NCBI GenBank assembly: GCA_040903985.1
Contig: JBBDUI010000002.1
Coordinates: forward strand, 326,038 to 390,037
Direction of reading: 5' to 3'
Length of the DNA: 64,000 bases
DNA from: Candidatus Saccharimonadales bacterium
GTDB taxonomy: Bacteria; Patescibacteriota; Saccharimonadia; QS-5-54-17
The notes under the pieces are model-generated. The model made no database searches. It was not told where the DNA came from and saw only the letters and a list, made by a program, of their open reading frames with translations. Below are positions 49,024-64,000 of this stretch, piece after piece (the first letter of the stretch is position 1; each line of letters starts with the position of its first letter). A program made the translations under genes and the position numbers.

Positions 49024-49045
49024 ATTAAAGAGTCGAGCACCACAG

Positions 49046-49133: not shown

Positions 49134-49192
49134 GCTCTAATGCTTACAACCTACAGTTTAAAAGCAAACGAACTTAAAGTCGAAACCTTAAA

Positions 49193-49891: not shown

Positions 49892-49953
49892 ACATACCCT
49901 TCATTATGCCATCTTTAATCAGTTTCTCAATCACTTTAAGCCTAAAATAGGCC

Positions 49954-50802: not shown

Positions 50803-50919
50803 AACTTGGATTATAGCAAACGCTTATGTTTTTAGCCCGCTCACTAATTAGCTTTGACTACTACTGCGACTCTAGTTTGCTTAAAATCATTGCTGTACAA
50901 TTAACTCTGACTGAGGTGA

Positions 50920-51009
50920 GGAGAGGTGGCCGAGCGGTTGAAGGCACTGGTCTTGAAAACCAGCAGGCCCTCACGGGTCTCGTGGGTTCGAATCCCACCC
51001 TCTCCGCCA
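50920..51009 (+). tRNA. tRNA-Ser (anticodon TGA), CCA encoded
   Basis: GGAGAGGUGGCCGAGCGGUUGAAGGCA-CUGGU-CUUGAAA-ACCAG... long variable arm ...GUGGGUUCGAAUCCCAC-CCUCUCC-G-CCA. Confidence 0.85.
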
Positions 51010-51086
51010 GTCGATAAGTGTTACACTTTAAAATACGGCCGAGCTGCAGCTATGCTCAATCGGAGAAGTACAGCTATCAAGCACGT

Positions 51087-51179
51087 GGAGAGGTACCCAA
51101 GAGGCTGAAGGGGCTGGTTTGCTAAACCGGTAGGGGGGAGCAATCCCCCGCGAGGGTTCGAATCCCTCCCTCTCCGCCA
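51087..51179 (+). tRNA. tRNA-Ser (anticodon GCT), CCA encoded
   Basis: GGAGAGGUACCCAAGAGGCUGAAGGGG-CUGGU-UUGCUAA-ACCGG... long variable arm ...GAGGGUUCGAAUCCCUC-CCUCUCC-G-CCA. Confidence 0.85.
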
Positions 51180-51447: not shown

Positions 51448-52119
51448 CTAATGTTTCGCTACCACCACCGCATCCACTCGTTTCGCGCCGCCCGCCCGCA
51501 AAAGTCGGGCGCATTCGTTTAGAGTGGCTCCAGTCGTCACCACGTCATCAACTAGCAGTACGCGTAGGCCTTTGACTCGGTCTGTACTCCGCAGCTTAAT
51601 GCTGCCCCTCACTTGGATTAAGCGCTGCTTGCGATCGGCACCGACCTGACGCAATCTACCCGCCTTATATCCCGTCTCGATGCAGGGTAGATCCATTAGA
51701 CGGGCTAATGCCCTAGCCAACTCTGCCGCCTGATTATAGCCCCGACGGCGAAAGCTGCGTGCAGTAGTTGGAGCCCAGGTAATCACATCGTAGCTCTGCT
51801 CCAGACTCACTAATTTAGTCGCTAGCAGTCGCGCCAAGGGAGTAGTCGCGTCTATACCGTTCTCGTACTTAAGGTAGCGAATCAGTTCCTTCACTAGACC
51901 GTCGTACTGGCTGGCCACCACCACCCGATAGAGCTGACTCTGCTTGCGGCAGCGGCTACAGGTACGAAAGCTCGGGCTGAGACGGTTACAGTTATAGCAG
52001 GTCTCTGCTCGGGGATTATCGAGATAGGGAAGGCAGTCGCGACATACCAGCTCACCGGTCGCACCGCAGCGACGGCAGGTGTGAGGCGCTATCAGTTTGA
52101 GGATTTGCTTGAAAAACAT
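51448..52119 (-). CDS. ComF family protein (competence protein ComFC-like, phosphoribosyltransferase domain)
   Basis: N-terminal Cys-rich zinc region CRRCG...CRDC...CYNC...CSRC. C-terminal PRTase motif VLLVDDVVTTGATLNE. Confidence 0.75.
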   Translation of the reverse strand: MFFKQILKLIAPHTCRRCGATGELVCRDCLPYLDNPRAETCYNCNRLSPSFRTCSRCRKQSQLYRVVVASQYDGLVKELIRYLKYENGIDATTPLARLLATKLVSLEQSYDVITWAPTTARSFRRRGYNQAAELARALARLMDLPCIETGYKAGRLRQVGADRKQRLIQVRGSIKLRSTDRVKGLRVLLVDDVVTTGATLNECARLLRAGGAKRVDAVVVAKH

Positions 52120-52208: not shown

Positions 52209-52685
52209 ATGGCTGCACGTGATAACGACCTAGATGATTTATTTGCCGAAGAACTCGAAGGTGATTTTTTAAATGATACCCCGGCTCAGACTAGCCCGGT
52301 AGCTGCTAACGACAGCGATAACAGTACGGAATCTGATGACTGGTTAGCCGAATCAGAAGTACCAGGTCAACTAGCGGTAGATGTCTACCAGACCAAGGAA
52401 AGCATCGTAGTGGTAGCTCCAGTCCCTGGCGTCAGTAAGGCCGACCTCGACCTTAGTATCGTCGAAAGCACCTTAACGGTCCGCGGCGCTCGCCGTGAGA
52501 GCGAGAAGATCCGTACTAGCGACTACTTCGTTCAGGAATGCTATTGGGGAGAGTTCTCTCGCTCTATAATTCTACCGGTCCAGGTCAAGGAAGAAGAGGC
52601 TGAAGCCGAGCTCAAAGACGGTATGCTGACAGTCACTATTCCTAAAGCTGAACAAGACCGCATCAAGAAGATCAGCATTAGCTAA
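52209..52685 (+). CDS. Small heat-shock protein (Hsp20/alpha-crystallin) with acidic N-terminal extension
   Basis: Alpha-crystallin domain AVDVYQTKESIVVVAPVPGVSKADLDLSIVESTLTVRG...KDGMLTVTIPK. Upstream candidate promoter TTGCGT-18-TATAAT and a tandem AGGATTTGCTTG direct repeat. Confidence 0.85.
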   Translation: MAARDNDLDDLFAEELEGDFLNDTPAQTSPVAANDSDNSTESDDWLAESEVPGQLAVDVYQTKESIVVVAPVPGVSKADLDLSIVESTLTVRGARRESEKIRTSDYFVQECYWGEFSRSIILPVQVKEEEAEAELKDGMLTVTIPKAEQDRIKKISIS

Positions 52686-52712
52686 ACTGCCCGGCGGTAG
52701 TCCGCACCCAAG

Positions 52713-52741
52713 AATAACCCCGCCATGATGGCGGGGTTATT
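52713..52741. terminator. Bidirectional hairpin terminator between hsp20 and pilin array
   Basis: AAUAACCCCGCCAU-G-AUGGCGGGGUUAUU, a 14 bp perfect stem between convergent transcription units. Confidence 0.6.
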
Positions 52742-52774
52742 CTCTTGCATCAACCTCTATGCACTCCGCTAGAT

Positions 52775-53122
52775 CTAAGTGGCGTTACCCTGGCTCAGCT
52801 GATCGATCACAAAGTCGACGGCAGCCCAGGATAGGAAGGCGACGATGATACCGATGATGGCGTAGAGAATAGTATTCTTAGCTCCTTCAACGGCACTGGA
52901 ATCACCTCCGGATACTACGTAGCGGAAACCACCGATGATTAGCATGATGACGGCGATGGCACCGAGTAGAGAAAGAAGGGTGTTAGCGATCGACTCAAAC
53001 ACCCCACCCGAACCGAATAAGCTATCGGCTACACCGCTGGGTTTAGTCGCATTAACCCCCCGCTCCAGGCTAGACTGAGCCACAGTATTAATAGCGCTTT
53101 GCAATATGCTGAGTTTATCCAT
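52775..53122 (-). CDS. VirB2/TrbC-like T4SS pilin-family paralog 1 (no signal peptide; possible silent/cassette copy)
   Basis: C-terminal 57 aa LGAIAVIMLIIGGFRYVVSGGDSSAVEGAKNTILYAIIGIIVAFLSWAAVDFVIDQL are identical to paralog 2. The N-terminus is hydrophilic. No RBS within 15 nt of the ATG. Confidence 0.6.
   Translation of the reverse strand: MDKLSILQSAINTVAQSSLERGVNATKPSGVADSLFGSGGVFESIANTLLSLLGAIAVIMLIIGGFRYVVSGGDSSAVEGAKNTILYAIIGIIVAFLSWAAVDFVIDQLSQGNAT
52798..52970 (-). repeat. 173-bp exact direct repeat shared by pilin paralogs 1 and 2 (second copy at 53274-53446)
   Basis: Identical nucleotide sequence at an offset of 476 bp. Encodes the conserved C-terminal double-TM hairpin. Confidence 0.8.
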
Positions 53123-53224
53123 AGTCTATGAGCCGAACTGTACGCCCGGCCGCTCCCTAGTTAATGATTAGCGAATTAACTATATTATACAATAAATTGT
53201 GCTTCATACAAAGAGTAACCGACC

Positions 53225-53254
53225 CTGGGTCGGGTCGGTTACTGACTAGCCTGG
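53225..53254 (-). terminator. Hairpin terminator after pilin paralog 2
   Basis: AGUAACCGACCC-UGGGUC-GGGUCGGUUACU, a 12 bp stem just downstream of the paralog 2 stop on the minus strand. Confidence 0.5.
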
Positions 53255-53266
53255 TAGACCAGATTC

Positions 53267-53650
53267 TTACTGAAGCTGATCGATCACAAAGTCGACGGCA
53301 GCCCAGGATAGGAAGGCGACGATGATACCGATGATGGCGTAGAGAATAGTATTCTTAGCTCCTTCAACGGCACTGGAATCACCTCCGGATACTACGTAGC
53401 GGAAACCACCGATGATTAGCATGATGACGGCGATGGCACCGAGTAGAAGGAGTAGGATGTTAGCGACTGTCTGGAAGACTCCACCGGCCTCAAACAAGGA
53501 ACTAGCTGTTCCTTCAGGCTTAACATCATTCAACTTATCGCCACCCAACTGGGCAAAGGCACTAGATGGTGTTAGTACGGCGGTAAAGAATATTGCCGCT
53601 TCTAGCAGCTTACGCTGAACGCCTTTCGAGATAGTTTGTAATTTTTTCAC
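53267..53650 (-). CDS. VirB2/TrbC-like T4SS pilin-family paralog 2 (likely major expressed copy)
   Basis: GTG start with GGAGG RBS 8 nt upstream. Own -10 TATAAT at ~53697-53702 on the minus strand. Signal peptide ending AFA-QL, variable region, then the conserved double-TM C-terminus. Confidence 0.7.
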   Translation of the reverse strand: MKKLQTISKGVQRKLLEAAIFFTAVLTPSSAFAQLGGDKLNDVKPEGTASSLFEAGGVFQTVANILLLLLGAIAVIMLIIGGFRYVVSGGDSSAVEGAKNTILYAIIGIIVAFLSWAAVDFVIDQLQ

Positions 53651-53733
53651 TTAAATTCTCCTCTTATTAGATATTCTGTTTCGATGACTTATGCTGAAAT
53701 TATAGCATAATTGCAGACATTCAAAAATCTTAA

Positions 53734-54207
53734 CTATCGGGGTCTAGAAGTTCCACCTGCACCACTATTCTCACTCTGCGACTGAGTCGTTGTTCCGCTA
53801 TTAGCTAGCTGATCGATCACAAAGTCGACGGCAGCCCAAGATAGGAAGGCGACGATAATGCCAACGATAGCGTAGAGAATGGTGTTGCGTGCGCCCTGGA
53901 CGGCATTCGAATCACCCCCAGAGACGACGAAGCGAAAGGCCCCAATTACTAGCATGATAACCGCTACCGCCCCCAGCACGAGAAGGAGTACATCGATAAC
54001 CGTCTTCACCGTATCGATCAGCTCTGGGCTATCGCCACCCATACTACACTCACTACCAGTCCAGCTACCACCGGCACCGATACAGGCCGACTCCTGCGCC
54101 GTCTGGGCATAAACCACATTCACGGTGCCTACGGTGCCGAACGCGAGCACACCCGCTACTACGATTAACATGCTAGATAGTATTTTTCTCATCCTGTCCC
54201 TTATCAT
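53734..54207 (-). CDS. VirB2/TrbC-like T4SS pilin-family paralog 3
   Basis: Signal peptide, Cys-containing variable region (ACIGAGGSWTGSECS), and conserved C-terminus LGAVAVIMLVIGAFRFVVSGGDSNAVQGARNTILYAIVGIIVAFLSWAAVDFVIDQL with a Gly/Ser/Thr-rich tail. Confidence 0.65.
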   Translation of the reverse strand: MIRDRMRKILSSMLIVVAGVLAFGTVGTVNVVYAQTAQESACIGAGGSWTGSECSMGGDSPELIDTVKTVIDVLLLVLGAVAVIMLVIGAFRFVVSGGDSNAVQGARNTILYAIVGIIVAFLSWAAVDFVIDQLANSGTTTQSQSENSGAGGTSRPR

Positions 54208-54566
54208 ACTGCACCCAGGGCAAACTGCACAATTATCTTAGCGGCAGCGGCCACCACTACCCCGACCAGAGAATAGATGATAGCCTCTCGGGCTCGCTTA
54301 GTCCGGTCCGGGCTACCCCCAGAGGTAGTGTAGATAAATCCGGCGACAATGATTACTACCACCGCTCCGATACCCATCACCCACAGTAGTAAGTCAGTAA
54401 TCGTATCGATGATACCAAGCACGGCATTTTGGTCAGCACTCTCACACTCCGCCCGATTGGGGTTATGCTGACAGACTATCTCCTGAGCTGACTGAGCTAA
54501 CGCCGGAGCTGCTCCGCTCAACATCATAACGAGAATTAGTCCGGTACTTATAATTGTCTGTTTCAT
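54204..54566 (-). CDS. VirB2/TrbC-like T4SS pilin-family paralog 4 (divergent)
   Basis: Signal peptide ALA-QS, Cys pair in the variable region, and a double-TM C-terminus: AVVVIIVAGFIYTTSGGSPDRTKRAREAIIYSLVGVVVAAAAKIIVQF. Confidence 0.6.
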   Translation of the reverse strand: MKQTIISTGLILVMMLSGAAPALAQSAQEIVCQHNPNRAECESADQNAVLGIIDTITDLLLWVMGIGAVVVIIVAGFIYTTSGGSPDRTKRAREAIIYSLVGVVVAAAAKIIVQFALGAV

Positions 54567-55063
54567 AGGTTATTTATCACAAAGTTTACGATAGTATAGG
54601 CCAGCACGCTAACCAATAGGCCGACTACGGCATAGAGGATAGTATTACGCGCGCTCTTCACTCCGTCCGGGCTACCGGCGGTAAAGACGAATTTGATCCC
54701 ACCGATGATAATGAAGACGGTAGCCAGCGCGCCAGTAATGACGAATACGATGTTAAGCACGCGGTTAAGAGCATTCTGATCCGCCTCAACATCCGGTATG
54801 CCTAGATCGTCTGCACTGCCCAGCGTACCAATATTAGCTGCTCCCGTACTGTCGACTCCGTTCTTATCTTCACAGAAGTCCACGCTATATCCCGGATATG
54901 GAGCTGGCTGTGGCACAGTCGTTCCATCATTACACTGCAGATCATCAGCATACACGACCGAAACACTCAGGTGCATCGTGAATGTAAGGATAACACTAGA
55001 GATCAATAGGAATCCGAAGACTCTAAGATCATGCGACGAGTAAATACCTTTTATAAAGTGCAT
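54563..55063 (-). CDS. VirB2/TrbC-like T4SS pilin-family paralog 5
   Basis: Signal peptide, Cys pair (CNDG...FCEDK), and conserved C-terminus IIIGGIKFVFTAGSPDGVKSARNTILYAVVGLLVSVLAYTIVNFVINNL. Confidence 0.6.
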   Translation of the reverse strand: MHFIKGIYSSHDLRVFGFLLISSVILTFTMHLSVSVVYADDLQCNDGTTVPQPAPYPGYSVDFCEDKNGVDSTGAANIGTLGSADDLGIPDVEADQNALNRVLNIVFVITGALATVFIIIGGIKFVFTAGSPDGVKSARNTILYAVVGLLVSVLAYTIVNFVINNL

Positions 55064-55417
55064 TTAGAATAGCCCCGCAACGAAGCCCACTAACGTACTG
55101 GCTAGAATCGCTATTACTAATCCTATCAGGGCATTAAGTAGTATCTTCTTTGCACTCTCGACAGCCGACGAGCTACCGCCGGAGGTGATGTAGCGGATAC
55201 CGCCGAAAATAATGAAGATTACAGCTAGTAGCCCAGCCAAGCGAATCGTTATATCCATGACGTTAGCTACTACTACCCAAAGATTATTAATATCCTGAAA
55301 GACTACCTGGCCTCCGTCACACTCTAGGCCGCGATACCAGTTAGGAAAGCCAAGGAAGTTGCTTGTACTCGGACACACTGCAGCAAACGTGTTTAGCAAA
55401 GGCTCAAAGTAGCTCAT
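55064..55417 (-). CDS. VirB2/TrbC-like T4SS pilin-family paralog 6
   Basis: Conserved C-terminus LLAVIFIIFGGIRYITSGGSSSAVESAKKILLNALIGLVIAILASTLVGFVAGLF. Weak N-terminal signal. Confidence 0.55.
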   Translation of the reverse strand: MSYFEPLLNTFAAVCPSTSNFLGFPNWYRGLECDGGQVVFQDINNLWVVVANVMDITIRLAGLLAVIFIIFGGIRYITSGGSSSAVESAKKILLNALIGLVIAILASTLVGFVAGLF

Positions 55418-55882
55418 CTATAGTATCCCTCCCGGAATTACGAAGTTAAGGATAGCCGCCATAAAAATAAACAGCAGCAGAGCCTCAAAAGCTTCCGTTA
55501 TCCGCTTTTTAGCGTGCGCCATACCTTCTGGGTTACCGGAAGAAGTGATGTACTGCACCCCACCAACCGTGATCATGAGGGCAATTACCAGGCCTACTCC
55601 ACCGGCTAAGAAACGAATGATCCAGCCCAAGTAGACAATAATCGGGTTAGTAGCTGCGTCGTCACCTCTAGGAACACAATTCTCCCCGTCCAGACCTACA
55701 CTGACATGTATCTCGTCATTTGCACAATGGTCGGCTATAACTGGAGCTACAGATAGTACCCCGATAAGGAGTATTACCCCAGCCAAAGAGGCGATACATA
55801 GTAATTTAAATTTGGCTCCGTTATTTATTTTTCTCATAGATTTAAGCAAATTATATAAGGTACTAAGTATTTCTACAACCAT
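55418..55882 (-). CDS. VirB2/TrbC-like T4SS pilin-family paralog 7 (first gene of array)
   Basis: Signal peptide, Cys pair (HCAND...ENCVP), and a double-TM C-terminus LVIALMITVGGVQYITSSGNPEGMAHAKKRITEAFEALLLFIFMAAILNFVIPGGIL. Confidence 0.55.
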   Translation of the reverse strand: MVVEILSTLYNLLKSMRKINNGAKFKLLCIASLAGVILLIGVLSVAPVIADHCANDEIHVSVGLDGENCVPRGDDAATNPIIVYLGWIIRFLAGGVGLVIALMITVGGVQYITSSGNPEGMAHAKKRITEAFEALLLFIFMAAILNFVIPGGIL

Positions 55883-55909: not shown

Positions 55910-55938
55910 TTGACATTTATAAGCACAGGTGTTATAGT
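55910..55938 (+). promoter_or_regulatory. Sigma-70 consensus-like promoter for the plus-strand T4SS operon
   Basis: TTGACA, 17 nt spacer, TATAGT. Lies in the divergent intergenic region between the pilin array and ORF 55978. Confidence 0.5.
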
Positions 55939-55977: not shown

Positions 55978-57099
55978 ATGCCTAACCCTAGCCAAGAGCA
56001 ACCACAGTTATTTCCGCTCGAACATGACAACCCTGGTGTAATAGCGCAACTTGAACAACCTCCTGCCACCGCTAATTATGAAACTACGGATAGAATACGG
56101 CAGATAGACCCCCGCACTGAGCAGGACTCCGATTCCATAGGCAGCTCTAGCGGGCTGCTAGATAAGCTCCGCAGTAACAAAACCGCCGCCGTATCTGCAC
56201 TCGGCGGGGCCGTAGTAGCGACCATTCTCTTCAATATGAGCAAGGGCAACGATGAGCCGGGGATCCGCAACACCGTGGAAGCGTCGGGACCAGCTGATAG
56301 TCTAGACCCTGAAGCTACTAGTACGCAGCCGGAGGGTGGGAATACTAGTGTGTCACCACCGACAGAGAGTGGTGCAATTGATCCTGCTCCTGTCTTTAGA
56401 GACCGCTACGAAAGCCCTATAAGCGGTAACTCTGCTCCACGTGAAACCTGGATTCAGCTATGGCGCATTGAGACAGATCAGTTAGCCGGTCCTAGCGCTA
56501 AAGAAACCGGCACTCTTTCGTATGTCGATAGCACTACGGCCGATCTTAAGGAAAGAGTCGGACTAGAAAGTACCCCAGAAAACCCGCAAGCACGACCAGA
56601 TACTATAGAAATAGCTGAAAACGTAGCCTACCTCTATGAGTATGAGGGGCGCACTATAACGATTGATCGGCCCGCAATCTATGGAATGCACTTTGCTCCA
56701 AAAGATGACGGTAGTTTTGAGGCTCAGTGGAGCTGGAACGCCACTCATGAAGCGTACGATAACTACACTTTGCTTTTCCCTCTTGATGGAGACATAGAGC
56801 AATTTACCGTTACTGGTGAAGATAGCGATGTTCGTTGGTTTACTCAAGAAGGAGCCCGACTACTCGGCCTCTTCTATACTGACGGAAGCGAAGAAGCGAG
56901 GCTATCGCAGGTGGTTGCGAACACCGACGAGAGTTATTTGCGACGCGAATCGATATCTAATCAAACACCTCGGCTTGACCTAGGCGTAGCCGAAACTAGC
57001 GAACACGCTACAATTTGGGATGCTTGGGATTCACTTGAGACCAAATACCCGCAACTAGTACCAGTAGAACTTTCCGAAATCTCAAACTTCGCAAAATAA
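55978..57099 (+). CDS. T4SS-associated bitopic membrane protein (possibly VirB8/TcpC-like); hypothetical
   Basis: Cytoplasmic Pro/Gln-rich N-terminus, single TM (AAVSALGGAVVATILF), then ~270 aa extracytoplasmic domain. This topology and size are typical of VirB8/TcpC-like proteins. No sequence motif confirmed. Confidence 0.4.
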   Translation: MPNPSQEQPQLFPLEHDNPGVIAQLEQPPATANYETTDRIRQIDPRTEQDSDSIGSSSGLLDKLRSNKTAAVSALGGAVVATILFNMSKGNDEPGIRNTVEASGPADSLDPEATSTQPEGGNTSVSPPTESGAIDPAPVFRDRYESPISGNSAPRETWIQLWRIETDQLAGPSAKETGTLSYVDSTTADLKERVGLESTPENPQARPDTIEIAENVAYLYEYEGRTITIDRPAIYGMHFAPKDDGSFEAQWSWNATHEAYDNYTLLFPLDGDIEQFTVTGEDSDVRWFTQEGARLLGLFYTDGSEEARLSQVVANTDESYLRRESISNQTPRLDLGVAETSEHATIWDAWDSLETKYPQLVPVELSEISNFAK

Positions 57100-57122
57100 A
57101 CACTTGCATTGAGTGGTGTACA

Positions 57123-59543
57123 GTGAAGGGGCTTCATATTATACTACCTCAAATGAGCTCTACACTTTCCGAAAAGCTAAAAACAAATAAGTTGTTCCGA
57201 CTTTTTGTCGGCACTATATTTATACTAAGCACTGTCTTTTTGTTTCAGCTCGGTACTCCCGATACAGTCTACGCCGGCCGAGGGAATGAGTGCCATGACG
57301 CCTATGACCGCACACAACCCAGGGGAAACCCCAATAATACCGCTGACTACGTACTGGGCTACGTTCAATCTTATCCGGATAAAGCCCCTGAAGTAGTTTG
57401 CGGTACGGATGCACAAGGCGATGACATACGGGTAGCCCTCCTGCAGTGGGGGCCTGACGCTGGTAGCTGGCTTGGTGACAGTTCTCTGCCTGATGCTGCG
57501 GCACGTTACCTATTCTGGGCCTGGACTAGAGGAGAGGACCATGCCTCATTTATCAGATACAGCTATGCGACTAACCCGCCCGAAGTGGCTAATATTGTTT
57601 ACTTAAACCGCAACCTAACCGTTAGCATAGACGGCAGTAGCCAACGAGTGGATGATCCAGTCGGCCTCTTGCCACTTATTGAGCAGACCGAAGAGAATGG
57701 TAATGAGGGGGTGGGGACGAACCCGGACGATGTGACCAGTGAAACACCGGGACCAGAGTTAGAGGAAGACGAAGAGTGCGTCAATGAGGGTGGACTCTTC
57801 GGTGTCCTTATGTGTGATGCGTTAGTTTGGACCTTAAGTGCTCTAGAGTCTGTCCAGAGCTTAATTGTTGAAGTTCTCTTTGAAACTAAACCACTCATAG
57901 TCGGAGACACTAGCGATCCCCTATTTCAGATATGGGGAAACATTAGGGATGTGGCCAACATTCTTCTAGTAGTAGCTTTCATGTTCGTCATCTACTCCTT
58001 AGCCGTATCGGTAAATATTGATGCTTACTCAGTTAAAAGGATTGTTCCGCGACTACTAGTTGCCGCAGTATCGATTCAAGCTTCTTATTTTATATCAGCT
58101 ATCTTCATAGATATGACGTCTATTCTAGGGGCGGGAATTCAAGGATTTACAGACATAGCCATGGATGATGTAAGAATATCTCTCGGTAATGCCGAGGGAG
58201 CCGGCGGGTTCATCGCCCTCGGGTCTATTGCTGGACTAGCAGTAGCTGGAGGAATATTGCTCGCTCCATCTATAGGGTTAGTGGCTGTTATAATTCTATT
58301 AGTAGTGCTCGCAGCATTTGTAGTGGTAGCAGCTCGTGACCTACTCATTCTGATGTGCGTAGTCTTATCGCCCATCGCCTTCCTGGCAAACCTACTACCA
58401 AATACCGAGAAGTGGTTTAAATTCTGGTGGTCCAACTTTGCACGACTTCTGTTTATGTACCCTTTCATGATTCTCATGATTCAAATCGGAAACCTTGGTG
58501 CCTATATAGCGCTAAGTGCAAATCGTGAAGCTAGCTTTTTGGCTCCATTTATGGCACTCATCATGCAGGGTGTAGCTATCGGGTCGATCCTCCTCGCCTT
58601 CAAGGTTGGGGGGTCTCTTCTCTCGGTTACAACCAGTGGATTCCAGAAGTTCGCTAAGGGTGGAGGCGGTAGGAGCAAAGACGGTAAGGGGTTGCGCGGC
58701 AAAATTGGTCAACGTGCTCGAGAACGCCGAGGTGAGTACGCTACCGGCACAAGAGGTAACGCCTTTACCCGCGGCATTACTAGCCCAGCCACCGCATCGG
58801 TTATGCCTAGTCGTTTCCGCAATCAGTCAAGAGCTCAAGCCCTTAGTGGCTTTAACCTTCAACGAGGCGAGGCGGCCAAAGCACTGGAAGCTGAAGGTCA
58901 CGATGCCGATGCACTCAACACTTTTGCTAGGTATGGTGAATCGACCGATAGTTTTAAGCAAGGGTTAAAAGAGCTCCGCTCTAGTACTCGAATTAACCGG
59001 GAGACAGGCGCTGTTGAGTATAAAGACGCAGATGACATAGATAGAGATAACGCTAAAGCCGACAAGCTTGCCAATATGTCGCACCACGTAGGAAAGCGTG
59101 CATTCCAAGCAGCTGCACTTAAGCAGGTGGCCGACATGGGCTTTGCCGATAATGAAAGTTTCGAATCTGTCAGAGGCCTACTTCAAGACAATCCCACCCT
59201 AAGCCAACAAGTACTTACTCCGGCAGCTGTCGGTGCTAAAAAGGCCGGGCGCATTGATCAGTGGAAAGAGTACGGCCCTCTCGAGGCAAAGGATATCGTG
59301 GCGGGTATGGGCACGAAGGATATCGTCGAAATGAAACCGGTCAGCCTGAAAGACGCTGAACTGGCCAACCAGTTTAGAGATCAAGCAAGTGTGCCGAAAA
59401 GTGCTGCGCGCAAAGCATTATCAAGTGCACTGGGCTCAGCCAGTGGTATGAGCGCCAAACAACACGAAGAGTTTGAGCGTGTATTAGGACCCGACCTATA
59501 TGCCAAGTTGGTGGAAGAAGCTGAAGAAGGATGGAAGCGGTAG
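57123..59543 (+). CDS. VirB6/TrbL-like polytopic T4SS channel protein (PrgH/TcpH-like)
   Basis: 806 aa. Signal-anchor, ~220 aa extracytoplasmic domain, at least 6 TM helices in the 250-560 region, and a ~250 aa hydrophilic C-terminal domain. This is the Gram-positive-type VirB6 architecture. Located 3 genes upstream of VirB4. Confidence 0.6.
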   Translation: MKGLHIILPQMSSTLSEKLKTNKLFRLFVGTIFILSTVFLFQLGTPDTVYAGRGNECHDAYDRTQPRGNPNNTADYVLGYVQSYPDKAPEVVCGTDAQGDDIRVALLQWGPDAGSWLGDSSLPDAAARYLFWAWTRGEDHASFIRYSYATNPPEVANIVYLNRNLTVSIDGSSQRVDDPVGLLPLIEQTEENGNEGVGTNPDDVTSETPGPELEEDEECVNEGGLFGVLMCDALVWTLSALESVQSLIVEVLFETKPLIVGDTSDPLFQIWGNIRDVANILLVVAFMFVIYSLAVSVNIDAYSVKRIVPRLLVAAVSIQASYFISAIFIDMTSILGAGIQGFTDIAMDDVRISLGNAEGAGGFIALGSIAGLAVAGGILLAPSIGLVAVIILLVVLAAFVVVAARDLLILMCVVLSPIAFLANLLPNTEKWFKFWWSNFARLLFMYPFMILMIQIGNLGAYIALSANREASFLAPFMALIMQGVAIGSILLAFKVGGSLLSVTTSGFQKFAKGGGGRSKDGKGLRGKIGQRARERRGEYATGTRGNAFTRGITSPATASVMPSRFRNQSRAQALSGFNLQRGEAAKALEAEGHDADALNTFARYGESTDSFKQGLKELRSSTRINRETGAVEYKDADDIDRDNAKADKLANMSHHVGKRAFQAAALKQVADMGFADNESFESVRGLLQDNPTLSQQVLTPAAVGAKKAGRIDQWKEYGPLEAKDIVAGMGTKDIVEMKPVSLKDAELANQFRDQASVPKSAARKALSSALGSASGMSAKQHEEFERVLGPDLYAKLVEEAEEGWKR

Positions 59544-59654
59544 TGGAGGGGCTAGCGTCTATAACCCAGGAGATGATCCCGGCAACACTACTAACTGAGA
59601 CTGAGTTTGTTCAGATACCGCAGGTTGCTATACTAAAACCATAAGTGATTTATT

Positions 59655-60497
59655 ATGGCTGTATATAAAGTACCCCAAGATGTCGAAGCCGAGGATAAGC
59701 TCCTCGGCCCTCTAACTTTTAAGCAGTTTATCTTTCTGCTGATTGCCGGTGGGGCGGCTATGTTTGCCTGGCTGCTCTTCACTATTCAGCCGGTACTCGC
59801 CATCATCCCTCTGCCCATCATACTAATCTTCGGTGGTCTAGCTGTCTTTCGTCGTGAGGATCAACCGGTTGAACGTTACCTCCTATCGTTCTTCAACTAC
59901 ACACTGCGCCCCCGGGTGCGACTATGGAGCACGGAGGGATACTACGACCACCTAGTCATTACGGCCCCTAAGACCATGGCCACACCCGCTCTAAAGCAGG
60001 ATGTTAGTCAGGTTCATGGCCAGCTCGAGAAGCTAGCGCAAATTGTCGATACTCGTGGCTGGTCGGTTAAACAGCCCAACATTACACTGCCGAACCAAGT
60101 CGGTCAGGGCGACGACCGTCTCTTTCTCCCTCAGGTAGAGGCTCCACCGGAAGAAGTCCAAGAGAGCGACGATATTATGGATGACGCCAACCCTGAAGTA
60201 GTGCAGCTCGACTCCATCCTACAACAAGAAGCCGAACGACAACGCCAAGCTTTGCTGGAGCGAGTCAAACAGCAGGCTAGCGAACCTAGCCATTCCACAG
60301 CCACCACTGAGCCCCAAGCCGGCTCTGCAGAGCAAGAACGTGTAGCACCAGCGGTAGAGCCGGCTCCATCTAGCGGCAATACATCTGATATAATGAACCT
60401 ATCTGACCAGCTGACCGTCAGCCAGATTCAAGATCAGGTTAATCGTCAGGCTACCGACCAAAAACTAGAAGAGGGTGAGGAGATAAAACTACGCTAA
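59655..60497 (+). CDS. VirB3/PrgI-like small membrane protein with extended C-terminus; hypothetical
   Basis: Two closely spaced N-terminal TM helices (FIFLLIAGGAAMFAWLLF, LAIIPLPIILIFGGLAVF), located immediately upstream of the VirB4 ORFs. C-terminus is Gln/Glu-rich. Confidence 0.4.
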   Translation: MAVYKVPQDVEAEDKLLGPLTFKQFIFLLIAGGAAMFAWLLFTIQPVLAIIPLPIILIFGGLAVFRREDQPVERYLLSFFNYTLRPRVRLWSTEGYYDHLVITAPKTMATPALKQDVSQVHGQLEKLAQIVDTRGWSVKQPNITLPNQVGQGDDRLFLPQVEAPPEEVQESDDIMDDANPEVVQLDSILQQEAERQRQALLERVKQQASEPSHSTATTEPQAGSAEQERVAPAVEPAPSSGNTSDIMNLSDQLTVSQIQDQVNRQATDQKLEEGEEIKLR

Positions 60498-61369
60498 TGC
60501 CACCGAACAACACGCCCAACCAGCCCCAATCACCGGCTACACCCGAACCGGCTCCAGCTACCCCTCAGACTCAGATCAACCCCAGCGCTGCACCCTTAGG
60601 TCCGCCGCCACGCTCGATGCCTAAAACCGCTAAGCCAGCGGTTAAAAAGAAGTCTGACAATACCGCTCAGAAGAGTCTACTTATCTCTGAGATCCGGGAC
60701 GGCATGGTAGTGATGAAGGACGGCTCGATGCGAGCGGTCGTGATGTGCCAATCAATCAACTTCGACCTAATGAGCCCACAGGAAAGGGAAGGGATAGAGT
60801 ACTCCTACCAGGGCTTCTTAAACTCACTCTACTTCCCAGTCCAGATACTAATCCGAAGCCAGCATATTAACCTCGACGGCTACATGGAGCGATTAGAAGC
60901 AATCAGACGAGACCAGGACAACATTCTGCTCGGACTGCTGATGGAAGATTACATCACCTACGTACGTTATCTGGTAGAAGCGGCCAACATTATGGACAAG
61001 CAGTTCTACATCGTGGTGCCTTACTACCCTAATATGCTGAACAAAGAGGGGATAGCCAGCGGCGCCCAGAAGTTCTCCGAACTCTTCAAACCGAAACAAG
61101 AAGGAGTAATCACTATTAACGAGACCGACTTCACCAAGGCTAAGCAGGAGTTGACGCAGCAGGTCCGGGTGGTAGCTAACGGCCTAAACCAACTAGGGGT
61201 TAAATCCATACCCCTAAACACCCAGGAGTTAATCGAGCTTTACTATAACGTCTACAATCCAGTCACTGCTAAACAGCAGCCGCTAACTGACGTCGGTGAC
61301 CTAGATGCATCGATCATCGGTAAGGGTGACGGCCAAGCAAAACAGGTATTCCCAGGGGGCGGGGCATAG
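60497..61369 (+). CDS. VirB4/TraC N-terminal-domain protein (Pro-rich leader plus CagE_TrbE_VirB-like domain); possibly the 5' part of a split virB4
   Basis: LLISEIRDGMVVMKDGSMRAVVMCQSINFDLMSPQEREGIEYSYQGFLNSL matches the conserved VirB4 N-terminal block (kdGs...G.dfe...see). The ORF ends with TAG 1 nt before the ATG of the ATPase ORF, at a G-run. Confidence 0.55.
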   Translation: MPPNNTPNQPQSPATPEPAPATPQTQINPSAAPLGPPPRSMPKTAKPAVKKKSDNTAQKSLLISEIRDGMVVMKDGSMRAVVMCQSINFDLMSPQEREGIEYSYQGFLNSLYFPVQILIRSQHINLDGYMERLEAIRRDQDNILLGLLMEDYITYVRYLVEAANIMDKQFYIVVPYYPNMLNKEGIASGAQKFSELFKPKQEGVITINETDFTKAKQELTQQVRVVANGLNQLGVKSIPLNTQELIELYYNVYNPVTAKQQPLTDVGDLDASIIGKGDGQAKQVFPGGGA

Positions 61370-61370
61370 T

Positions 61371-63266
61371 ATGGGTATATTTAGTAAAAAAACCGATCCG
61401 GTCAGCCTAGCCGATGAGCAGAAGCGGCGGGAGCAGCTGGAAGTAGAGGAGCAGTTCCGCGAAGGCATCACCGGGCTGCGCGACTTTATCGCCCCTTCCA
61501 GCCTAGAGTTCGAATCATCCCAGATGAAAATCGGCACCCGCTACGCCCGCACCGTCTACGTCTACGGTTATCCGCGTCAAATCTATACCGGATGGCTCTC
61601 GCCAATTATTAATCTAGACGAAGCGCTCGATATCAGTATGTTTATCTATCCGGTCGAAAGTAAAGTCGTACTCGACAACCTCCGCAAGAAGGTTTCCCAA
61701 TTAGAAGCTAGTATTCAGATCAACGCTGAGAAAGGCCGGGTGCGTGATCCCGGACTAGAAGCCGCTATCCAAGATGCGGAGGAGTTACGGAGTCGCCTGC
61801 AGGTTGGCGAAGAGCGCTTCTTCCGTTTCGGGCTCTACATCACAATGTATGCCGACTCCCTAGAAGAGATGACCTACATCCAGCGCAAGATCGAGGGCAT
61901 CTTCGGCCAAGAACTGGTCTACACCAAGACGGCGACAGTTCAGATGGAGCAGGCCTTCAACTCGACCGTACCCCAGCTAACTGATCAGCTACAGATCAAG
62001 CGTAACCTCGACACCGGTGCACTCTCTACCACCTTTCCCTTTACTTCAGCTGATCTATCTCAGGAAGAGGGGATACTCTATGGCATTAACATGCATAACA
62101 ACGGCTTAGTCATCTTCGACCGTTTCTCATTAGAGAATGCCAATATGGTCGTCTTCGCCAAGTCCGGTGCCGGTAAGAGCTTCACGGTTAAGCTCGAGGC
62201 TTTGCGTAGTCTTATGTTTGGTCGCCAGGTTATCATCATCGATCCGGAAAACGAGTATGAGCGTCTGTCCGATGCAGTGGGGGGCAGCTACATTCACCTT
62301 AGCCTCAACTCCGATACTTATGTGAACCCTTTCGATTTACCGCAAGTAACCGACTCGGAAGAGGCAGACAACGCCCTGCGGGCTAACCTCATCACCCTGC
62401 ACGGTATGCTACGCCTGATGATGGGCAGCACTCGGCAGCAGGAAGATGGCAGTATGAGCTCCGGCATTACTGCCGCCGAAGAGGCCGACCTCGATATGGC
62501 CCTAATTAACACCTACGCGGCACGCGGCATCACTAGTGATCCGCTCACCCACAGCGTCGAGCCCCCCACCATTAACGATCTATACGAAACCTTAGTTAAC
62601 ATGTCGGGCACCGGACCTAGCCTGGCTCAGCGTTTGCGTAAATACACCCAAGGCACCTTCTCCGGTATCTTCTCAAATCAATCTAACGTCACTCTGGATA
62701 ATAATTTCGTCGTCTTCAACATCCGTGATCTTGAAGACGAATTACGCCCCGTCGCCATGTACATCGTCTTAAACTATATCTGGAACCGCGTGAAGTCCGA
62801 CCAGCGCGAACGTTTCCTGATCGTCGATGAGGCCTGGCAGCTGATGAAGCACGAAGACTCAGCCAACTTCCTCTTCTCGGTCGCCAAGCGCGCCCGTAAG
62901 TACGCCCTGGGACTAACCACTATCTCACAAGACGTAGAGGACTTCTTAACTTCCCGTATGGGTCGCGCTATCGTCTCTAACTCCAGTATGCAGGTACTGC
63001 TCAAGCAGGCTCCTTCGGCCGTCGACCTAGTAGCTGACACCTTTAAACTCACTAGCGAGGAGAAAAAGCGGCTTAGCCAATTCCCGGTCGGCCAGGGATT
63101 ATTCTTCGCCGGCTCCAACCACGTCCACATCCGGATTGAGGCCAGCCCCACCGAAACTCAGCTCATCACTACCGACCCACGCCAACTAGCCGCTATGCAG
63201 GCCATCACTGAAGGTCAGGATGCCGCCCAAGCCGCCTCAGAAGCCGCTAAAGAGCCGGAACTGTAA
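61371..63266 (+). CDS. VirB4-family T4SS ATPase (TraC/TrsE/PrgJ-like)
   Basis: Walker A VVFAKSGAGKSFTV, Walker B FLIVDEAWQLM, and C-terminal motifs TISQDVEDF and SNSSMQVLLKQ. Start set at MGIFSKK (61371), 2 nt after the upstream stop. Confidence 0.85.
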   Translation: MGIFSKKTDPVSLADEQKRREQLEVEEQFREGITGLRDFIAPSSLEFESSQMKIGTRYARTVYVYGYPRQIYTGWLSPIINLDEALDISMFIYPVESKVVLDNLRKKVSQLEASIQINAEKGRVRDPGLEAAIQDAEELRSRLQVGEERFFRFGLYITMYADSLEEMTYIQRKIEGIFGQELVYTKTATVQMEQAFNSTVPQLTDQLQIKRNLDTGALSTTFPFTSADLSQEEGILYGINMHNNGLVIFDRFSLENANMVVFAKSGAGKSFTVKLEALRSLMFGRQVIIIDPENEYERLSDAVGGSYIHLSLNSDTYVNPFDLPQVTDSEEADNALRANLITLHGMLRLMMGSTRQQEDGSMSSGITAAEEADLDMALINTYAARGITSDPLTHSVEPPTINDLYETLVNMSGTGPSLAQRLRKYTQGTFSGIFSNQSNVTLDNNFVVFNIRDLEDELRPVAMYIVLNYIWNRVKSDQRERFLIVDEAWQLMKHEDSANFLFSVAKRARKYALGLTTISQDVEDFLTSRMGRAIVSNSSMQVLLKQAPSAVDLVADTFKLTSEEKKRLSQFPVGQGLFFAGSNHVHIRIEASPTETQLITTDPRQLAAMQAITEGQDAAQAASEAAKEPEL

Positions 63267-63321
63267 CTTATTTTCGTGCTCAATAGTATCAACATAAGGT
63301 TAACCACTTAAACACAATATT

Positions 63322-64000
63322 ATGTCCACCCTAGAAGATAAAAAGCCAGACACCAAACCAGACGGTAGCCATGACGACGTGGAGCTTAGCGCCGCCGAGC
63401 GGGCCGAGTCAGACCAGCTACTCGCTAGCGCCGAAGAGGGCGACTCCTTTTATAGCGATGAAGGGAGCGAGGGCAAAAGAGGGGCGGGAAGTAGGTTGGC
63501 CGGGGCCGCTCTTAAAACCACACCGGTGGGGCGGGCGCTTAGTTTTATCACTCGCAACAAGAAGAGTACGGCAGTCGGGGGAGGGATACTGGGATTTATC
63601 GTCAGCGTTGTCGCACTAATCGTTATGATTATACCTCCCACCCAGCTAATGTGGATGAACAACGTCTTCCAGGATTTTAACTTTGGTCCCCATGACCGTA
63701 GTGTGGTCGGGCGGGCTAACCGAATTAACGAGCACTTACGACTACGTCGGTCTAACGACACCCAGCTAGGCCAGAAAATAGAAAACGTAAGTGCCGATGA
63801 TGCTCAGCGTGCCCGAGTAGCTGAGACAAGTGGCGACAGGGTGAGCCGCTACAATCGCCGCGCACCCTTTAGGGATATGATAGGTAGTAGGATTAGGGGT
63901 GGTTTTAACTGGCGATTCTTCACTGGTCACTCACGCAGCTCTCCTTCTTATGTCAACAGCCGCAACAAGATGCTGGGAATTAACGATTCTTCCTTACGCG
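63322..64000 (+). CDS. Partial CDS (3' end beyond window): hypothetical membrane-anchored protein downstream of virB4
   Basis: ATG at 63322, open to the window end with no stop, which is why it is absent from the track. Acidic N-terminus, then a TM helix (GGGILGFIVSVVALIVMIIPP). The tracked ORF 63371-63619 is in another frame and is probably spurious. Confidence 0.4.
   Translation, partial: MSTLEDKKPDTKPDGSHDDVELSAAERAESDQLLASAEEGDSFYSDEGSEGKRGAGSRLAGAALKTTPVGRALSFITRNKKSTAVGGGILGFIVSVVALIVMIIPPTQLMWMNNVFQDFNFGPHDRSVVGRANRINEHLRLRRSNDTQLGQKIENVSADDAQRARVAETSGDRVSRYNRRAPFRDMIGSRIRGGFNWRFFTGHSRSSPSYVNSRNKMLGINDSSLR

What the first reader, a model, noticed from the sequence alone, without database searches (positions are those of the whole stretch)
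55978..64000. Minimal T4SS-like core with no coupling protein or relaxase in view
The plus-strand operon behind a consensus TTGACA-17-TATAGT promoter encodes five products. There is a bitopic membrane protein with a large extracytoplasmic domain (VirB8/TcpC-like topology), an 806 aa VirB6-like polytopic protein, a VirB3-like double-TM protein, a VirB4 N-domain protein and a VirB4 ATPase with clear Walker A/B motifs. A further membrane protein runs off the window end. Together with the divergent pilin array this is a compact Gram-positive-style T4SS. No VirD4 coupling ATPase, relaxase, oriT-like repeat, integrase or partition gene is present in the 11 kb shown, so the locus does not look like an integrated conjugative element. 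A ComF competence protein is encoded 600 bp upstream of the array. This configuration fits a chromosomal T4SS used for DNA uptake (ComB-like) or cell-cell/host interaction rather than plasmid transfer.
Basis: partly seen in the sequence, partly recalled or inferred. Interest (0 to 1): 0.65.

Follow-up and report, generated by a model that had tools for sequence, protein, structure and literature searches.

The report
Known Saccharibacteria chromosomal type IV secretion locus
This is the chromosomal, pilus-type type IV secretion gene cluster that sits next to the replication origin in essentially all Saccharibacteria, was already described in 2023-2025 and shown to be essential in a cultured relative, so it is a real system but an ordinary instance of a known one.

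Summary

The window is an exact piece of a 739-kb contig of a Candidatus Saccharimonadales MAG (GCA_040876815.1). Reading 10 kb past the window end finds a large membrane protein, a two-domain cell-wall hydrolase and a small exported protein. These are followed by dciA-recF-dnaN-dnaA-rpmH-rnpA-yidC, the chromosomal origin. No coupling protein, relaxase, integrase or partition gene occurs in about 74 kb.

Gene order matches the Southlakia epibionticum ML1 T4SS locus gene for gene (Wang 2023), whose genes are essential for growth on its host. It also matches the Patescibacteria T4SS survey (Quinonero-Coronel 2025).

VirB4 is 70-90% identical in the 80 best related loci. It is more conserved than DnaA or DnaN, whereas the 373-aa, VirB6-like and post-VirB4 proteins diverge fast.

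"Not an ICE" is supported. "ComB-like DNA uptake" is not. The VirB8-like fold of the 373-aa protein could not be tested because the AlphaFold models failed.

Side lead: the closest plasmid relatives, in Streptomycetaceae and Bacillaceae, also carry a pilin gene and a split VirB4.

The parts
51448..52119 (-). comF (ComFC-type phosphoribosyltransferase with N-terminal zinc ribbon). This is a conserved neighbour of the locus, not shown to be part of the machine.
   Evidence: TIGR00201 comF 9.9e-24 (84 bits, below its curated cutoff of 233.55) and Pfam Pribosyltran 1.5e-11. It occupies the same position as SEML1_0021 (K02242), which is non-essential in S. epibionticum.
52209..52685 (+). Hsp20 small heat-shock protein, a conserved neighbour.
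   Evidence: PF00011 1.4e-18. It occupies the same position as SEML1_0020.
52711..52743 (.). Perfect 16+16-nt hairpin between the convergent hsp20 gene and the last pilin gene; probably a bidirectional terminator.
   Evidence: Inverted repeat I1, L001 1341-1373, 100% complementary with a 1-nt loop. The terminator function is inferred.
52775..53122 (-). VirB2-like pilin 7 (115 aa).
   Evidence: PF18895 5.4e-11. Its C-terminal 225 nt are 92% identical to pilin 6.
53267..53650 (-). VirB2-like pilin 6 (127 aa).
   Evidence: PF18895 8.7e-11; TrbC/VirB2 PF04956 5e-6.
53734..54207 (-). VirB2-like pilin 5 (152-157 aa).
   Evidence: PF18895 2.1e-8.
54204..54566 (-). VirB2-like pilin 4 (120 aa).
   Evidence: PF18895 8.4e-13.
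54563..55063 (-). VirB2-like pilin 3 (137-166 aa).
   Evidence: PF18895 2.5e-12. NCBIfam Mbov_0395 pilin-like conjugal transfer protein 2.2e-7, at 30.5 bits below its cutoff of 40.
55064..55417 (-). VirB2-like pilin 2 (117 aa).
   Evidence: PF18895 1.2e-10.
55418..55882 (-). VirB2-like pilin 1 (139-154 aa).
   Evidence: PF18895 4.6e-6, 27.1 bits, just above the cutoff of 26.6.
55910..55938 (+). Sigma-70-type promoter TTGACA-17-TATAGT with a TG extended -10 element, in the divergent intergenic region.
   Evidence: 11/12 match; best site in 52-64 kb. Function is not tested.
55978..57099 (+). 373-aa bitopic membrane protein. It has a variable N-terminus, one TM (69-88), a low-complexity linker and a C-terminal domain of about 230 aa. 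It evolves fast and is lineage-restricted. It is the positional equivalent of SEML1_0012.
   Evidence: - Only 6 relatives among 1.84 billion representative proteins.
- 30% identity to the L004 orthologue while VirB4 is 87%.
- No Pfam, NCBIfam or PDB match.
- The AF2 model is unusable, pLDDT 29.
57123..59543 (+). Extended VirB6/TrbL-like polytopic membrane protein (796-806 aa) with a hydrophilic C-terminal region of about 270 aa.
   Evidence: - About 8 TM segments.
- 17 of 43 family members hit PF04610 TrbL/VirB6.
- The family profile's top PDB hit is TrwI/VirB6, E 0.022, over the conserved P-L-A-F...W motif.
- Precomputed PF19590 TrbL_3.
- Present in 44 of 45 related loci.
59655..60497 (+). 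VirB3-like PrgI family protein (280 aa; two TM helices and a long acidic tail).
   Evidence: PF12666 9e-15. Present in 45 of 45 loci. Its stop overlaps the next start (TAATG).
60497..61369 (+). TrsD-like protein (290 aa), the detached N-terminal part of VirB4.
   Evidence: NCBIfam TrsD 6.8e-7. It matches VirB4_plasma profile positions 98-283 and CD1110 positions 114-171. Present in 45 of 45 loci. Its stop codon lies 1 nt before the virB4 ATG.
61371..63266 (+). VirB4 ATPase (631 aa), the only NTPase of the locus.
   Evidence: - NF045971 conju_CD1110 3.2e-111, 372.9 bits against a cutoff of 325.
- PDB 4AG5 8.4e-52.
- Walker A at 263 and Walker B at 482.
- 70-90% identical in the 80 best related loci.
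63322..64000 (+). First 226 codons of a 722-aa membrane protein (full length at L001 11952-14120). It belongs to the conserved large protein family encoded directly after virB4 and is the positional equivalent of SEML1_0007.
   Evidence: - Profile-profile match to the family found in 78 loci: probability 99%, E 2.7e-18, residues 265-704.
- Other members carry C-terminal M23, VanY, CHAP, NlpC/P60 or other domains. This copy carries none.
- The AF2 model is unusable, pLDDT 35.

Best explanation
The region is the chromosomal type IV secretion system of Saccharibacteria (class Saccharimonadia, Patescibacteria). It is orthologous and syntenic to the S. epibionticum ML1 cluster SEML1_0005-0021, not a mobile element.

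Proposed working, with shown and inferred steps marked:
- Transcription. One promoter region drives two divergent units. On the minus strand are seven VirB2-like pilin genes. On the plus strand are the 373-aa, VirB6, VirB3/PrgI, TrsD, VirB4, 722-aa, hydrolase and small exported protein genes, several of them abutting or overlapping (shown).
- Motor. VirB4 is the only ATPase and is split into TrsD plus a 631-aa core (shown). It is inferred to dock on the membrane through PrgI and the VirB6-like protein, to extract pilins from the membrane and to polymerise them into a filament or tube, as VirB4 does in other T4SSs.
- Cell-wall passage. A lysozyme plus NlpC/P60 hydrolase is encoded two genes downstream of virB4 (shown). 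In related genomes the post-VirB4 protein also carries peptidase domains (shown). These enzymes are inferred to open peptidoglycan, the cell's own and possibly the host's.
- Host contact. The exposed parts (373 aa, VirB6 ectodomain, 722 aa, pilin N-termini) diverge fast while VirB4 is more conserved than DnaA (shown). This fits a host-contact interface.
- Substrate. With no coupling protein and no relaxase, the machine is not a conjugation apparatus. I favour a conduit or attachment organelle at the epibiont-host interface. Uptake of host material is more likely than effector export. The direction of transport is inferred, at about 50%.
For: Identity and context:
- Exact match to GCA_040876815.1, 739-kb contig.
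- Downstream genes run to dnaN, dnaA, rpmH, rnpA and yidC.

Synteny:
- Gene-for-gene match with SEML1_0005-0021, including comF, hsp20 and tRNA-Ser. Those genes are classed essential in Tn-seq (PMC10633639).
- The published survey describes the same set: TrsD, PrgI, VirB6 and VirB2 arrays of 2-11 genes, no relaxase, and proximity to dnaA in several Patescibacteria classes (PMC12102498).

Conservation:
- VirB6, PrgI, TrsD and VirB4 are present in 44-45 of 45 full related loci. dnaN is present in 42 of 45 and dnaA in 36 of 45.
- Median identity across those loci is VirB4 72%, DnaA 55%, DnaN 46% and L34 61%.
- Against the nearest relatives, VirB4 is 86-87% identical, while the 373-aa, VirB6-like and 722-aa proteins are 30-35%.

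Components:
- Only one Walker A/B protein in the locus.
- The hydrolase family profile matches the phi29 gp13 lysozyme domain (4.5e-16) and Spr/MepS NlpC/P60 (4e-5), with an invariant Cys316 and His381.

Not a mobile element:
- No mobile-element gene in about 74 kb.
- Uniform G+C across the window.
Against: - Function was not tested here. Essentiality is known only for one cultured relative.
- The transported substrate and its direction are unknown in the literature. One review states that the role 'is completely unknown' (PMC11665869).
- A T4CP or relaxase elsewhere in this genome could not be excluded. Only about 74 kb of the assembly was readable.
- The folds of the 373-aa and 722-aa proteins remain unknown.
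- The 722-aa protein lacks the hydrolase domain that its relatives carry.
Confidence: 0.85

Rival explanations
1. A ComB-like DNA-uptake T4SS that works with the adjacent comF and the competence machinery to import DNA.
For: - comF lies 656 bp from the pilin array and this adjacency is conserved.
- The locus lacks a T4CP and a relaxase, as ComB does.
- Reviews raise T4SS-mediated uptake as a possible nucleotide source (PMC11665869).
- There is a weak VirB4 hit to the archaeal DNA importer CedB, 4.4e-13, far below its cutoff.
Against: - The VirB4 is of the Firmicute CD1110 type, not MPF_T.
- There are no VirB7/9/10-type parts.
- In S. epibionticum, comEC deletion abolishes transformation but cells stay viable, while the T4SS is essential. 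The comF orthologue is non-essential there.
- comF was detected near the locus in only 11 of 45 related loci within the fetched flanks.
Confidence: 0.08
2. A conjugative T4SS whose coupling protein and relaxase are encoded elsewhere in the genome.
For: - T4CP homologues are reported in most Patescibacteria genomes, far from virB4 (PMC12102498).
- The closest plasmid relatives in Streptomycetaceae place a T4CP and a Replic_Relax protein directly after virB4.
Against: - Relaxases were found in only 103 of 3,035 Patescibacteria genomes.
- The distal T4CP is non-essential in S. epibionticum while the T4SS genes are essential.
- The only FtsK-like gene in the window has 4TM, alpha and gamma domains, which marks it as the chromosomal FtsK.
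- The locus has a fixed position at the origin across species.
Confidence: 0.05
3. A decaying remnant of an integrated conjugative element.
For: The system is related to monoderm conjugation systems and lacks the DNA-processing genes.
Against: - All ORFs are intact.
- VirB4 is more conserved than DnaA or DnaN.
- The same position and gene order are seen across the 45 full related loci examined.
- There is no integrase or att-type flank, and G+C is uniform.
- The orthologous genes are essential in a relative.
Confidence: 0.02

Closest known systems
Southlakia epibionticum ML1 T4SS cluster (SEML1_0005-0021; Wang et al. 2023, Cell, PMC10633639) and the Patescibacteria-clade T4SS surveyed by Quinonero-Coronel et al. 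2025 (PMC12102498)
   Same: The gene order is the same: comF, hsp20, divergent pilin array, small bitopic protein, VirB6, PrgI, TrsD-like, VirB4, large membrane protein, lysozyme-type hydrolase, small exported protein, recF, dnaN, dnaA. Neither has an adjacent T4CP or relaxase.
   Different: - This locus has one VirB6 paralogue where ML1 has two. About half of the related loci have one.
- It has seven pilin genes where ML1 has six.
- Its post-VirB4 protein is short (722 aa against 1113 aa) and has no recognisable enzymatic domain.
- Its hydrolase has lysozyme plus NlpC/P60 domains rather than three lysozyme-like domains.
CD1110-family (MPF_FATA) conjugative T4SSs of Bacillota plasmids and ICEs, for example the Brevibacillus and Clostridium perfringens plasmids
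   Same: - The VirB4 scores above the CD1110 family cutoff.
- The order PrgI, VirB4, large cell-wall hydrolase is shared.
   Different: - Those systems have MobC, a relaxase and a CD1115-type VirD4.
- Their VirB4 is unsplit, about 800 aa.
- No pilin or TrsD gene was detected in them.
- VirB4 identity to the window protein is only about 30%.
Plasmid T4SS loci in Streptomycetaceae (Embleya NZ_CP108778, Streptomyces NZ_CP081497) and Bacillaceae (Pontibacillus NZ_CP062975, Priestia NZ_CP045273)
   Same: - These are the closest plasmid VirB4 proteins, at 35-38% identity.
- A PF18895 pilin gene is present in all four loci, a VirB6/TrbL-like gene was detected in three of them (not in Priestia), followed by PrgI, TrsD and a short VirB4.
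- Pontibacillus also has a large M23 plus NlpC/P60 protein after virB4 and no T4CP or relaxase within 10 kb.
   Different: - They carry one or two pilin genes rather than seven.
- In the Streptomycetaceae loci PrgI and TrsD are fused, and virB4 is followed by a T4CP and a Replic_Relax protein.
- They are plasmid-borne rather than next to a chromosomal origin.
Helicobacter pylori ComB DNA-uptake T4SS
   Same: It lacks a coupling protein and a relaxase, and it is chromosomal.
   Different: ComB is a diderm MPF_T-type system with ComB7/9/10 outer-membrane core parts. None of these is present here, and the VirB4 affinity is to monoderm systems. The description of ComB rests on established knowledge and on PMC11665869 ref. 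57.

Membership tests
Patescibacteria/Saccharimonadia chromosomal T4SS | VirB4 of the Patescibacteria clade, related to MPF_FATA | tested here: met
   70-90% identity in the 80 best related loci, nearly all titled Saccharibacteria or Saccharimonadales. CD1110 family 3e-111. No formal tree was built.
Patescibacteria/Saccharimonadia chromosomal T4SS | TrsD-like gene immediately upstream of virB4 | tested here: met
   NCBIfam TrsD 6.8e-7. It tiles the VirB4 N-terminal profile region. Present in 45 of 45 loci.
Patescibacteria/Saccharimonadia chromosomal T4SS | VirB3 (PrgI) and VirB6 homologues next to virB4 | tested here: met
   PrgI 9e-15. VirB6 is supported at family level: 17 of 43 members hit PF04610, and TrwI is the top PDB hit.
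Patescibacteria/Saccharimonadia chromosomal T4SS | Array of divergent VirB2-like pilin genes | tested here: met
   Seven of seven genes pass PF18895. Identities to the first pilin in the alignment are 20-26%.
Patescibacteria/Saccharimonadia chromosomal T4SS | No relaxase or T4CP nearby; chromosomal position near dnaA | tested here: met
   dnaA lies about 7.5 kb past the end of virB4. No such genes occur in about 74 kb.
Patescibacteria/Saccharimonadia chromosomal T4SS | Required for epibiotic growth | not testable with these tools
   Known only for S. epibionticum ML1 from Tn-seq (PMC10633639).
Integrative conjugative element or conjugative T4SS | Relaxase, coupling protein (VirD4/TcpA), integrase or oriT associated with the T4SS genes | tested here: not met
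   - None is present in the window or 10 kb downstream.
- The only inverted repeat of 16 nt or more near the cluster is a terminator-like hairpin.
- The rest of the genome was not readable.
ComB-type DNA-uptake T4SS | MPF_T-type parts, including ComB7/9/10 core proteins and a ComB4-type VirB4 | tested here: not met
   No such ORFs were found. VirB4 matches monoderm 4AG5 at 8e-52 against TrwK at 7e-5.
VirB8/TcpC/TraM (for the 373-aa protein) | Bitopic topology with an extracytoplasmic NTF2-like domain | tested here: inconclusive
   - Topology is met: one TM at 69-88.
- There is no profile match in Pfam, NCBIfam or PDB, including with a 7-sequence profile.
- The AF2 model has pLDDT 29, so no fold search was justified.
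- The positional counterpart SEML1_0012 was assigned an NTF2-like domain (ECOD e4ec6D1) by others.
VirB1-like cell-wall hydrolase of monoderm T4SSs (PrgK/TcpG/CD419 type), for the 437-aa protein at L001 14120-15433 | Membrane-anchored protein combining a glycosidase domain and a Cys-peptidase domain, encoded beside virB4 | tested here: met
   - Single-sequence hits: Glucosaminidase 4.6e-6 and NlpC/P60 2e-3.
- Family profile hits: phi29 gp13 lysozyme 4.5e-16 and Spr 4e-5.
- Cys316 and His381 are invariant and E126 is nearly invariant.
- Enzyme activity was not tested.

The most novel reading that the evidence does not exclude
The Saccharibacteria system may descend from a piliated Gram-positive conjugation module of the kind still found on Streptomycetaceae and Bacillaceae plasmids.
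- That module has a PF18895 pilin, VirB6, PrgI, TrsD and a short VirB4.
- The Saccharibacteria version would differ mainly by loss of the T4CP and relaxase that follow virB4 there, and by amplification of the pilin gene.
- If so, the VirB2-like pilin was inherited rather than co-opted, and 'Gram-positive T4SSs lack pilins' is wrong for this subclass.

Separately, several parts may set host specificity, since their rate of change far exceeds that of VirB4. These are the fast-evolving 373-aa, VirB6 and post-VirB4 proteins, together with the interchangeable C-terminal wall-hydrolase domains of the last (M23, VanY, CHAP, NlpC/P60).
Probability: 0.35. Interest if true: 0.5.

Novelty: already known. 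Interest (0 to 1): 0.22.

Why it matters
The Patescibacteria T4SS is of real current interest. It is the first T4SS reported as essential for the bacterium that carries it. It may build a pilus in a monoderm, and its substrate is unknown. This window adds one more ordinary instance and confirms the published picture, so the finding opens no new question.

Three things here may be useful to the field:
- VirB4 is more conserved than DnaA or DnaN, while the exposed components diverge to 30-35% identity between the same genomes.
- The protein after virB4 has a conserved core with swappable wall-hydrolase domains.
- The nearest plasmid relatives in Actinomycetota and Bacillota also have a pilin gene and a split VirB4. 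This bears on where the system came from.

Tried and rejected
Attempts that gave no usable result:
- AlphaFold2 of the 373-aa protein with its only usable alignment (2 sequences) gave pLDDT 29.
- AlphaFold2 of the 722-aa protein (5 sequences) gave pLDDT 35. Both models are unusable, so no fold search was run.
- Homologue searches for the 373-aa protein found only itself and one partial protein in the 5.8-billion set. They found six weak relatives among 1.84 billion representatives.
- PDB sequence and profile searches for the 373-aa and 722-aa proteins returned nothing meaningful.
- Pfam scans of 33 positional equivalents of the 373-aa gene found no domain.

Leads checked and dropped:
- A weak DUF4440 (NTF2-like) hit in the 722-aa protein, E 0.052, is noted but not relied on.
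- dnaA downstream looked split. This is a 10-N scaffold gap, not a frameshift.
- Rfam found only tRNAs in the window.
- No oriT-like repeat was found near the cluster.

Explanations rejected:
- ICE remnant.
- ComB-like DNA uptake as the main explanation (see rival explanations).

Full report
**1. Observation**

- 55978-57099 (373 aa)
- 57123-59543 (806 aa from GTG; NCBI aa)
- 59655-60497 (280 aa)
- 60497-61369 (290 aa)
- 61371-63266 (631 aa; the longer ORF from 61305 overlaps the previous gene)

A sixth ORF starts at 63322 and runs off the window end. The promoter TTGACA-17-TATAGT lies at 55910-55938 and has a TG extended -10 element. It is the best match in 52-64 kb, although the total count of promoter-like sites there is not above shuffled expectation.

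Gene junctions indicate an operon. The prgI stop overlaps the next start (TAATG), and the 290-aa gene stops 1 nt before the virB4 ATG. Seven minus-strand genes at 52775-55882 all pass PF18895 T4SS_pilin. comF lies at 51448-52119.

**2. Identity of the parts**

- **VirB4.** It scores above the curated cutoff of the CD1110 VirB4 family (3e-111, 372.9 bits against 325). It matches the Thermoanaerobacter VirB4 structure 4AG5 at 8e-52, against 7e-5 for TrwK of R388. It holds the only Walker A/B motifs in the locus.
- **290-aa protein.** It matches TrsD (6.8e-7) and positions 98-283 of a full-length VirB4 profile. The 631-aa protein matches positions 285-893 of the same profile. VirB4 is therefore split into two adjacent genes. 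The split is present in all 45 full related loci.
- **280-aa protein.** It is PrgI/VirB3-like (9e-15).
- **806-aa protein.** It has about 8 TM segments and no Pfam hit of its own. In an alignment of its TM core with 42 relatives, 17 of the 43 members hit TrbL/VirB6 PF04610. The profile's top PDB hit is TrwI, the VirB6 of R388 (E 0.022).
- **373-aa protein.** It is bitopic, but no sequence or fold evidence makes it VirB8-like.

**3. Where it is**

The VirB4 protein is encoded on a 739-kb contig of GCA_040876815.1, a Candidatus Saccharimonadales MAG. The fetched locus overlaps the window over 12,630 bases with no mismatch.

Past the window end come, in order:
- the 722-aa protein;
- a 417-437-aa hydrolase;
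- a 199-aa exported protein with weak PEGA-like hits;
- dciA, recF, a 163-aa ORF, dnaN, dnaA, rpmH, rnpA and yidC.

The rest of the window encodes FtsK (with 4TM, alpha and gamma domains), RNase J, PNPase, PolA, sigma-70, DnaG, GroES/EL, ValRS, Mur ligase and similar functions. It has no integrase, relaxase, ParAB or VirD4 gene. G+C is uniform at 0.47-0.54. This is a core chromosomal locus beside the replication origin.

**4. Comparison across genomes**

A scan of one genome per species found at least 570 stretches encoding a relative of this VirB4. The 80 best are 70-90% identical, and nearly all are titled Saccharibacteria or Saccharimonadales.

In 45 loci with full flanks, presence was as follows:

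| Gene | Loci with the gene |
|---|---|
| VirB6-like | 44 |
| PrgI | 45 |
| TrsD | 45 |
| VirB4 | 45 |
| dnaN | 42 |
| dnaA | 36 |

Pilin genes, where detected within the 10-kb flanks, are always upstream and divergent.

Median identity across those loci is VirB4 72%, L34 61%, DnaA 55%, DnaN 46% and RecF 37%. Identity to the two nearest relatives is as follows:

| Protein | Identity to nearest relatives |
|---|---|
| VirB4 | 86-87% |
| DnaA | 70-71% |
| TrsD | 66-69% |
| DnaN | 65-68% |
| hydrolase | 50% |
| PrgI | 44-48% |
| pilins | 40-64% |
| 722-aa protein | 33-35% |
| VirB6-like | 31-32% |
| 373-aa protein | 30%, or undetectable |

The motor is under very strong constraint, and the exposed parts change fast.

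**5. The two unknown proteins**

- **373-aa protein.** It has only six weak relatives among 1.84 billion representative proteins.
- **722-aa protein.** It looked like an orphan by BLAST. A profile-profile comparison joins it (99% probability, E 2.7e-18, residues 265-704) to the family that follows virB4 in all 78 related loci where such a gene could be read.
- **C-terminal domains in that family.** Of 30 members scanned, the domains found were M23 (11), VanY (3), CHAP (2), NlpC/P60 (2), an endonuclease/phosphatase domain (1) and C39-like (1). The copy here has none.
- **Hydrolase next door.** Its family matches the phi29 gp13 lysozyme domain (4.5e-16) and Spr/MepS NlpC/P60 (4e-5), with an invariant Cys and His.
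- **Structure prediction.** AlphaFold2 models of both unknown proteins were unusable because the permitted alignments were too shallow.

**6. What is already known**

Wang et al. 2023 described the S. epibionticum ML1 T4SS (SEML1_0006-0019). They noted the pilin genes and the lack of a coupling protein and relaxase, and showed by Tn-seq that the genes are essential.

Their supplementary tables give a gene order that matches this window gene for gene. The match includes comF (non-essential), hsp20, tRNA-Ser and the recF-dnaN-dnaA side.

Quinonero-Coronel et al. 2025 surveyed 3,035 genomes. They reported:
- a monophyletic Patescibacteria VirB4 clade nested in MPF_FATA;
- TrsD, PrgI and VirB6;
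- VirB2 arrays of 2-11 genes;
- relaxases in only 103 genomes;
- proximity to dnaA.

Reviews state that the function is unknown and discuss effector delivery or uptake. A 2026 preprint on a cultivated ectoparasite of the same phylum reports tubular structures at the host interface that may be T4SS pili. The finding is therefore a rediscovery.

**7. Mechanism**

Shown:
- the parts list;
- a single ATPase;
- the operon layout;
- hydrolase domains with conserved catalytic residues;
- the pattern of conservation.

Inferred from established T4SS biology:
- VirB4, anchored by PrgI and VirB6, drives pilin extraction and polymerisation.
- The hydrolases open the cell wall.
- The variable ectodomains meet the host.

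With no coupling protein to recruit cytoplasmic substrates and no relaxase, conjugation is unlikely. The organism's dependence on its host makes a conduit for uptake, or an attachment organelle, the more economical reading. Export of effectors is not excluded.

The ComB analogy fails on homology and on the published genetics of the relative.

**8. Side lead**

The closest plasmid-borne VirB4 proteins (35-38% identity) are in Embleya, Streptomyces, Pontibacillus and Priestia.
- Those loci carry a PF18895 pilin gene (41.8-72.4 bits), PrgI, TrsD and a short VirB4. A VirB6/TrbL-like gene was detected in three of them, not in Priestia.
- TrsD is fused to PrgI in the two Streptomycetaceae loci.
- In those two loci virB4 is followed by a T4CP and a Replic_Relax protein.
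- Pontibacillus has a large M23 plus NlpC/P60 protein after virB4 and no T4CP or relaxase within 10 kb.
- Classical CD1110 plasmids, at about 30% identity, have an unsplit VirB4. No pilin or TrsD was detected in them.

The pilin and the split VirB4 are therefore not unique to Patescibacteria. This rests on four loci and best hits, not on a phylogeny.

**9. Verdict**

The ComB analogy and the VirB8 call are unsupported.
- The system is already known, so interest is low.

Noticed in passing
L086 5577-15441 (Embleya plasmid NZ_CP108778); L090 6571-15229 (Streptomyces plasmid NZ_CP081497); L087 5456-15009 (Pontibacillus NZ_CP062975); L091 7910-12136 (Priestia NZ_CP045273): The closest plasmid relatives of this VirB4 (35-38% identity) sit in loci with a PF18895 VirB2-like pilin gene, PrgI, TrsD and a short VirB4; a VirB6/TrbL-like gene was detected in three of the four. 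The two Streptomycetaceae loci continue with a T4CP and a Replic_Relax protein. The literature read here treats VirB2-like pilins as absent from Gram-positive T4SSs other than those of Patescibacteria.
   Followed up: partly
window 52797-53021 and 53274-53498 (third copy at 53807-54031): The last two pilin genes share a 225-nt stretch at 92% identity covering the C-terminal two-helix hairpin, and a third pilin matches at 67%. Their N-terminal halves differ. This points to a recent duplication or gene conversion inside the array.
   Followed up: partly
window 61371-63266 compared with L001 17922-20709: VirB4 is more conserved between Saccharimonadales genomes than DnaA, DnaN, RecF or ribosomal protein L34. 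Median identities are 72% against 55, 46, 37 and 61%. Against the nearest relatives the figures are 86-87% against 65-71%.
   Followed up: yes
L001 11952-14120 and the equivalent gene in 78 related loci: The large protein encoded after virB4 has a conserved core but interchangeable C-terminal domains in different genomes: M23, VanY, CHAP, NlpC/P60, an endonuclease/phosphatase domain and C39-like. The copy in this genome has none.
   Followed up: partly
L001 19915-19933 (about 7.3 kb beyond the window end): dnaA appears as two ORFs in the public gene calls. The cause is a run of 10 N (a scaffold gap) in the assembly, not a frameshift.
   Followed up: yes
window 52711-52743: A perfect 16-nt inverted repeat with a 1-nt loop lies between the convergent hsp20 gene and the last pilin gene. 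It is probably a bidirectional terminator.
   Followed up: no
window 49045-51179: Four tRNA genes lie just upstream of comF: three tRNA-Ser and one tRNA-Arg. S. epibionticum also has a tRNA-Ser next to comF, so the synteny extends beyond the T4SS genes.
   Followed up: no
L001 17401-17892 (beyond the window): A 163-aa ORF between recF and dnaN has no detectable homologue in any of the related loci and no Pfam match.
   Followed up: no
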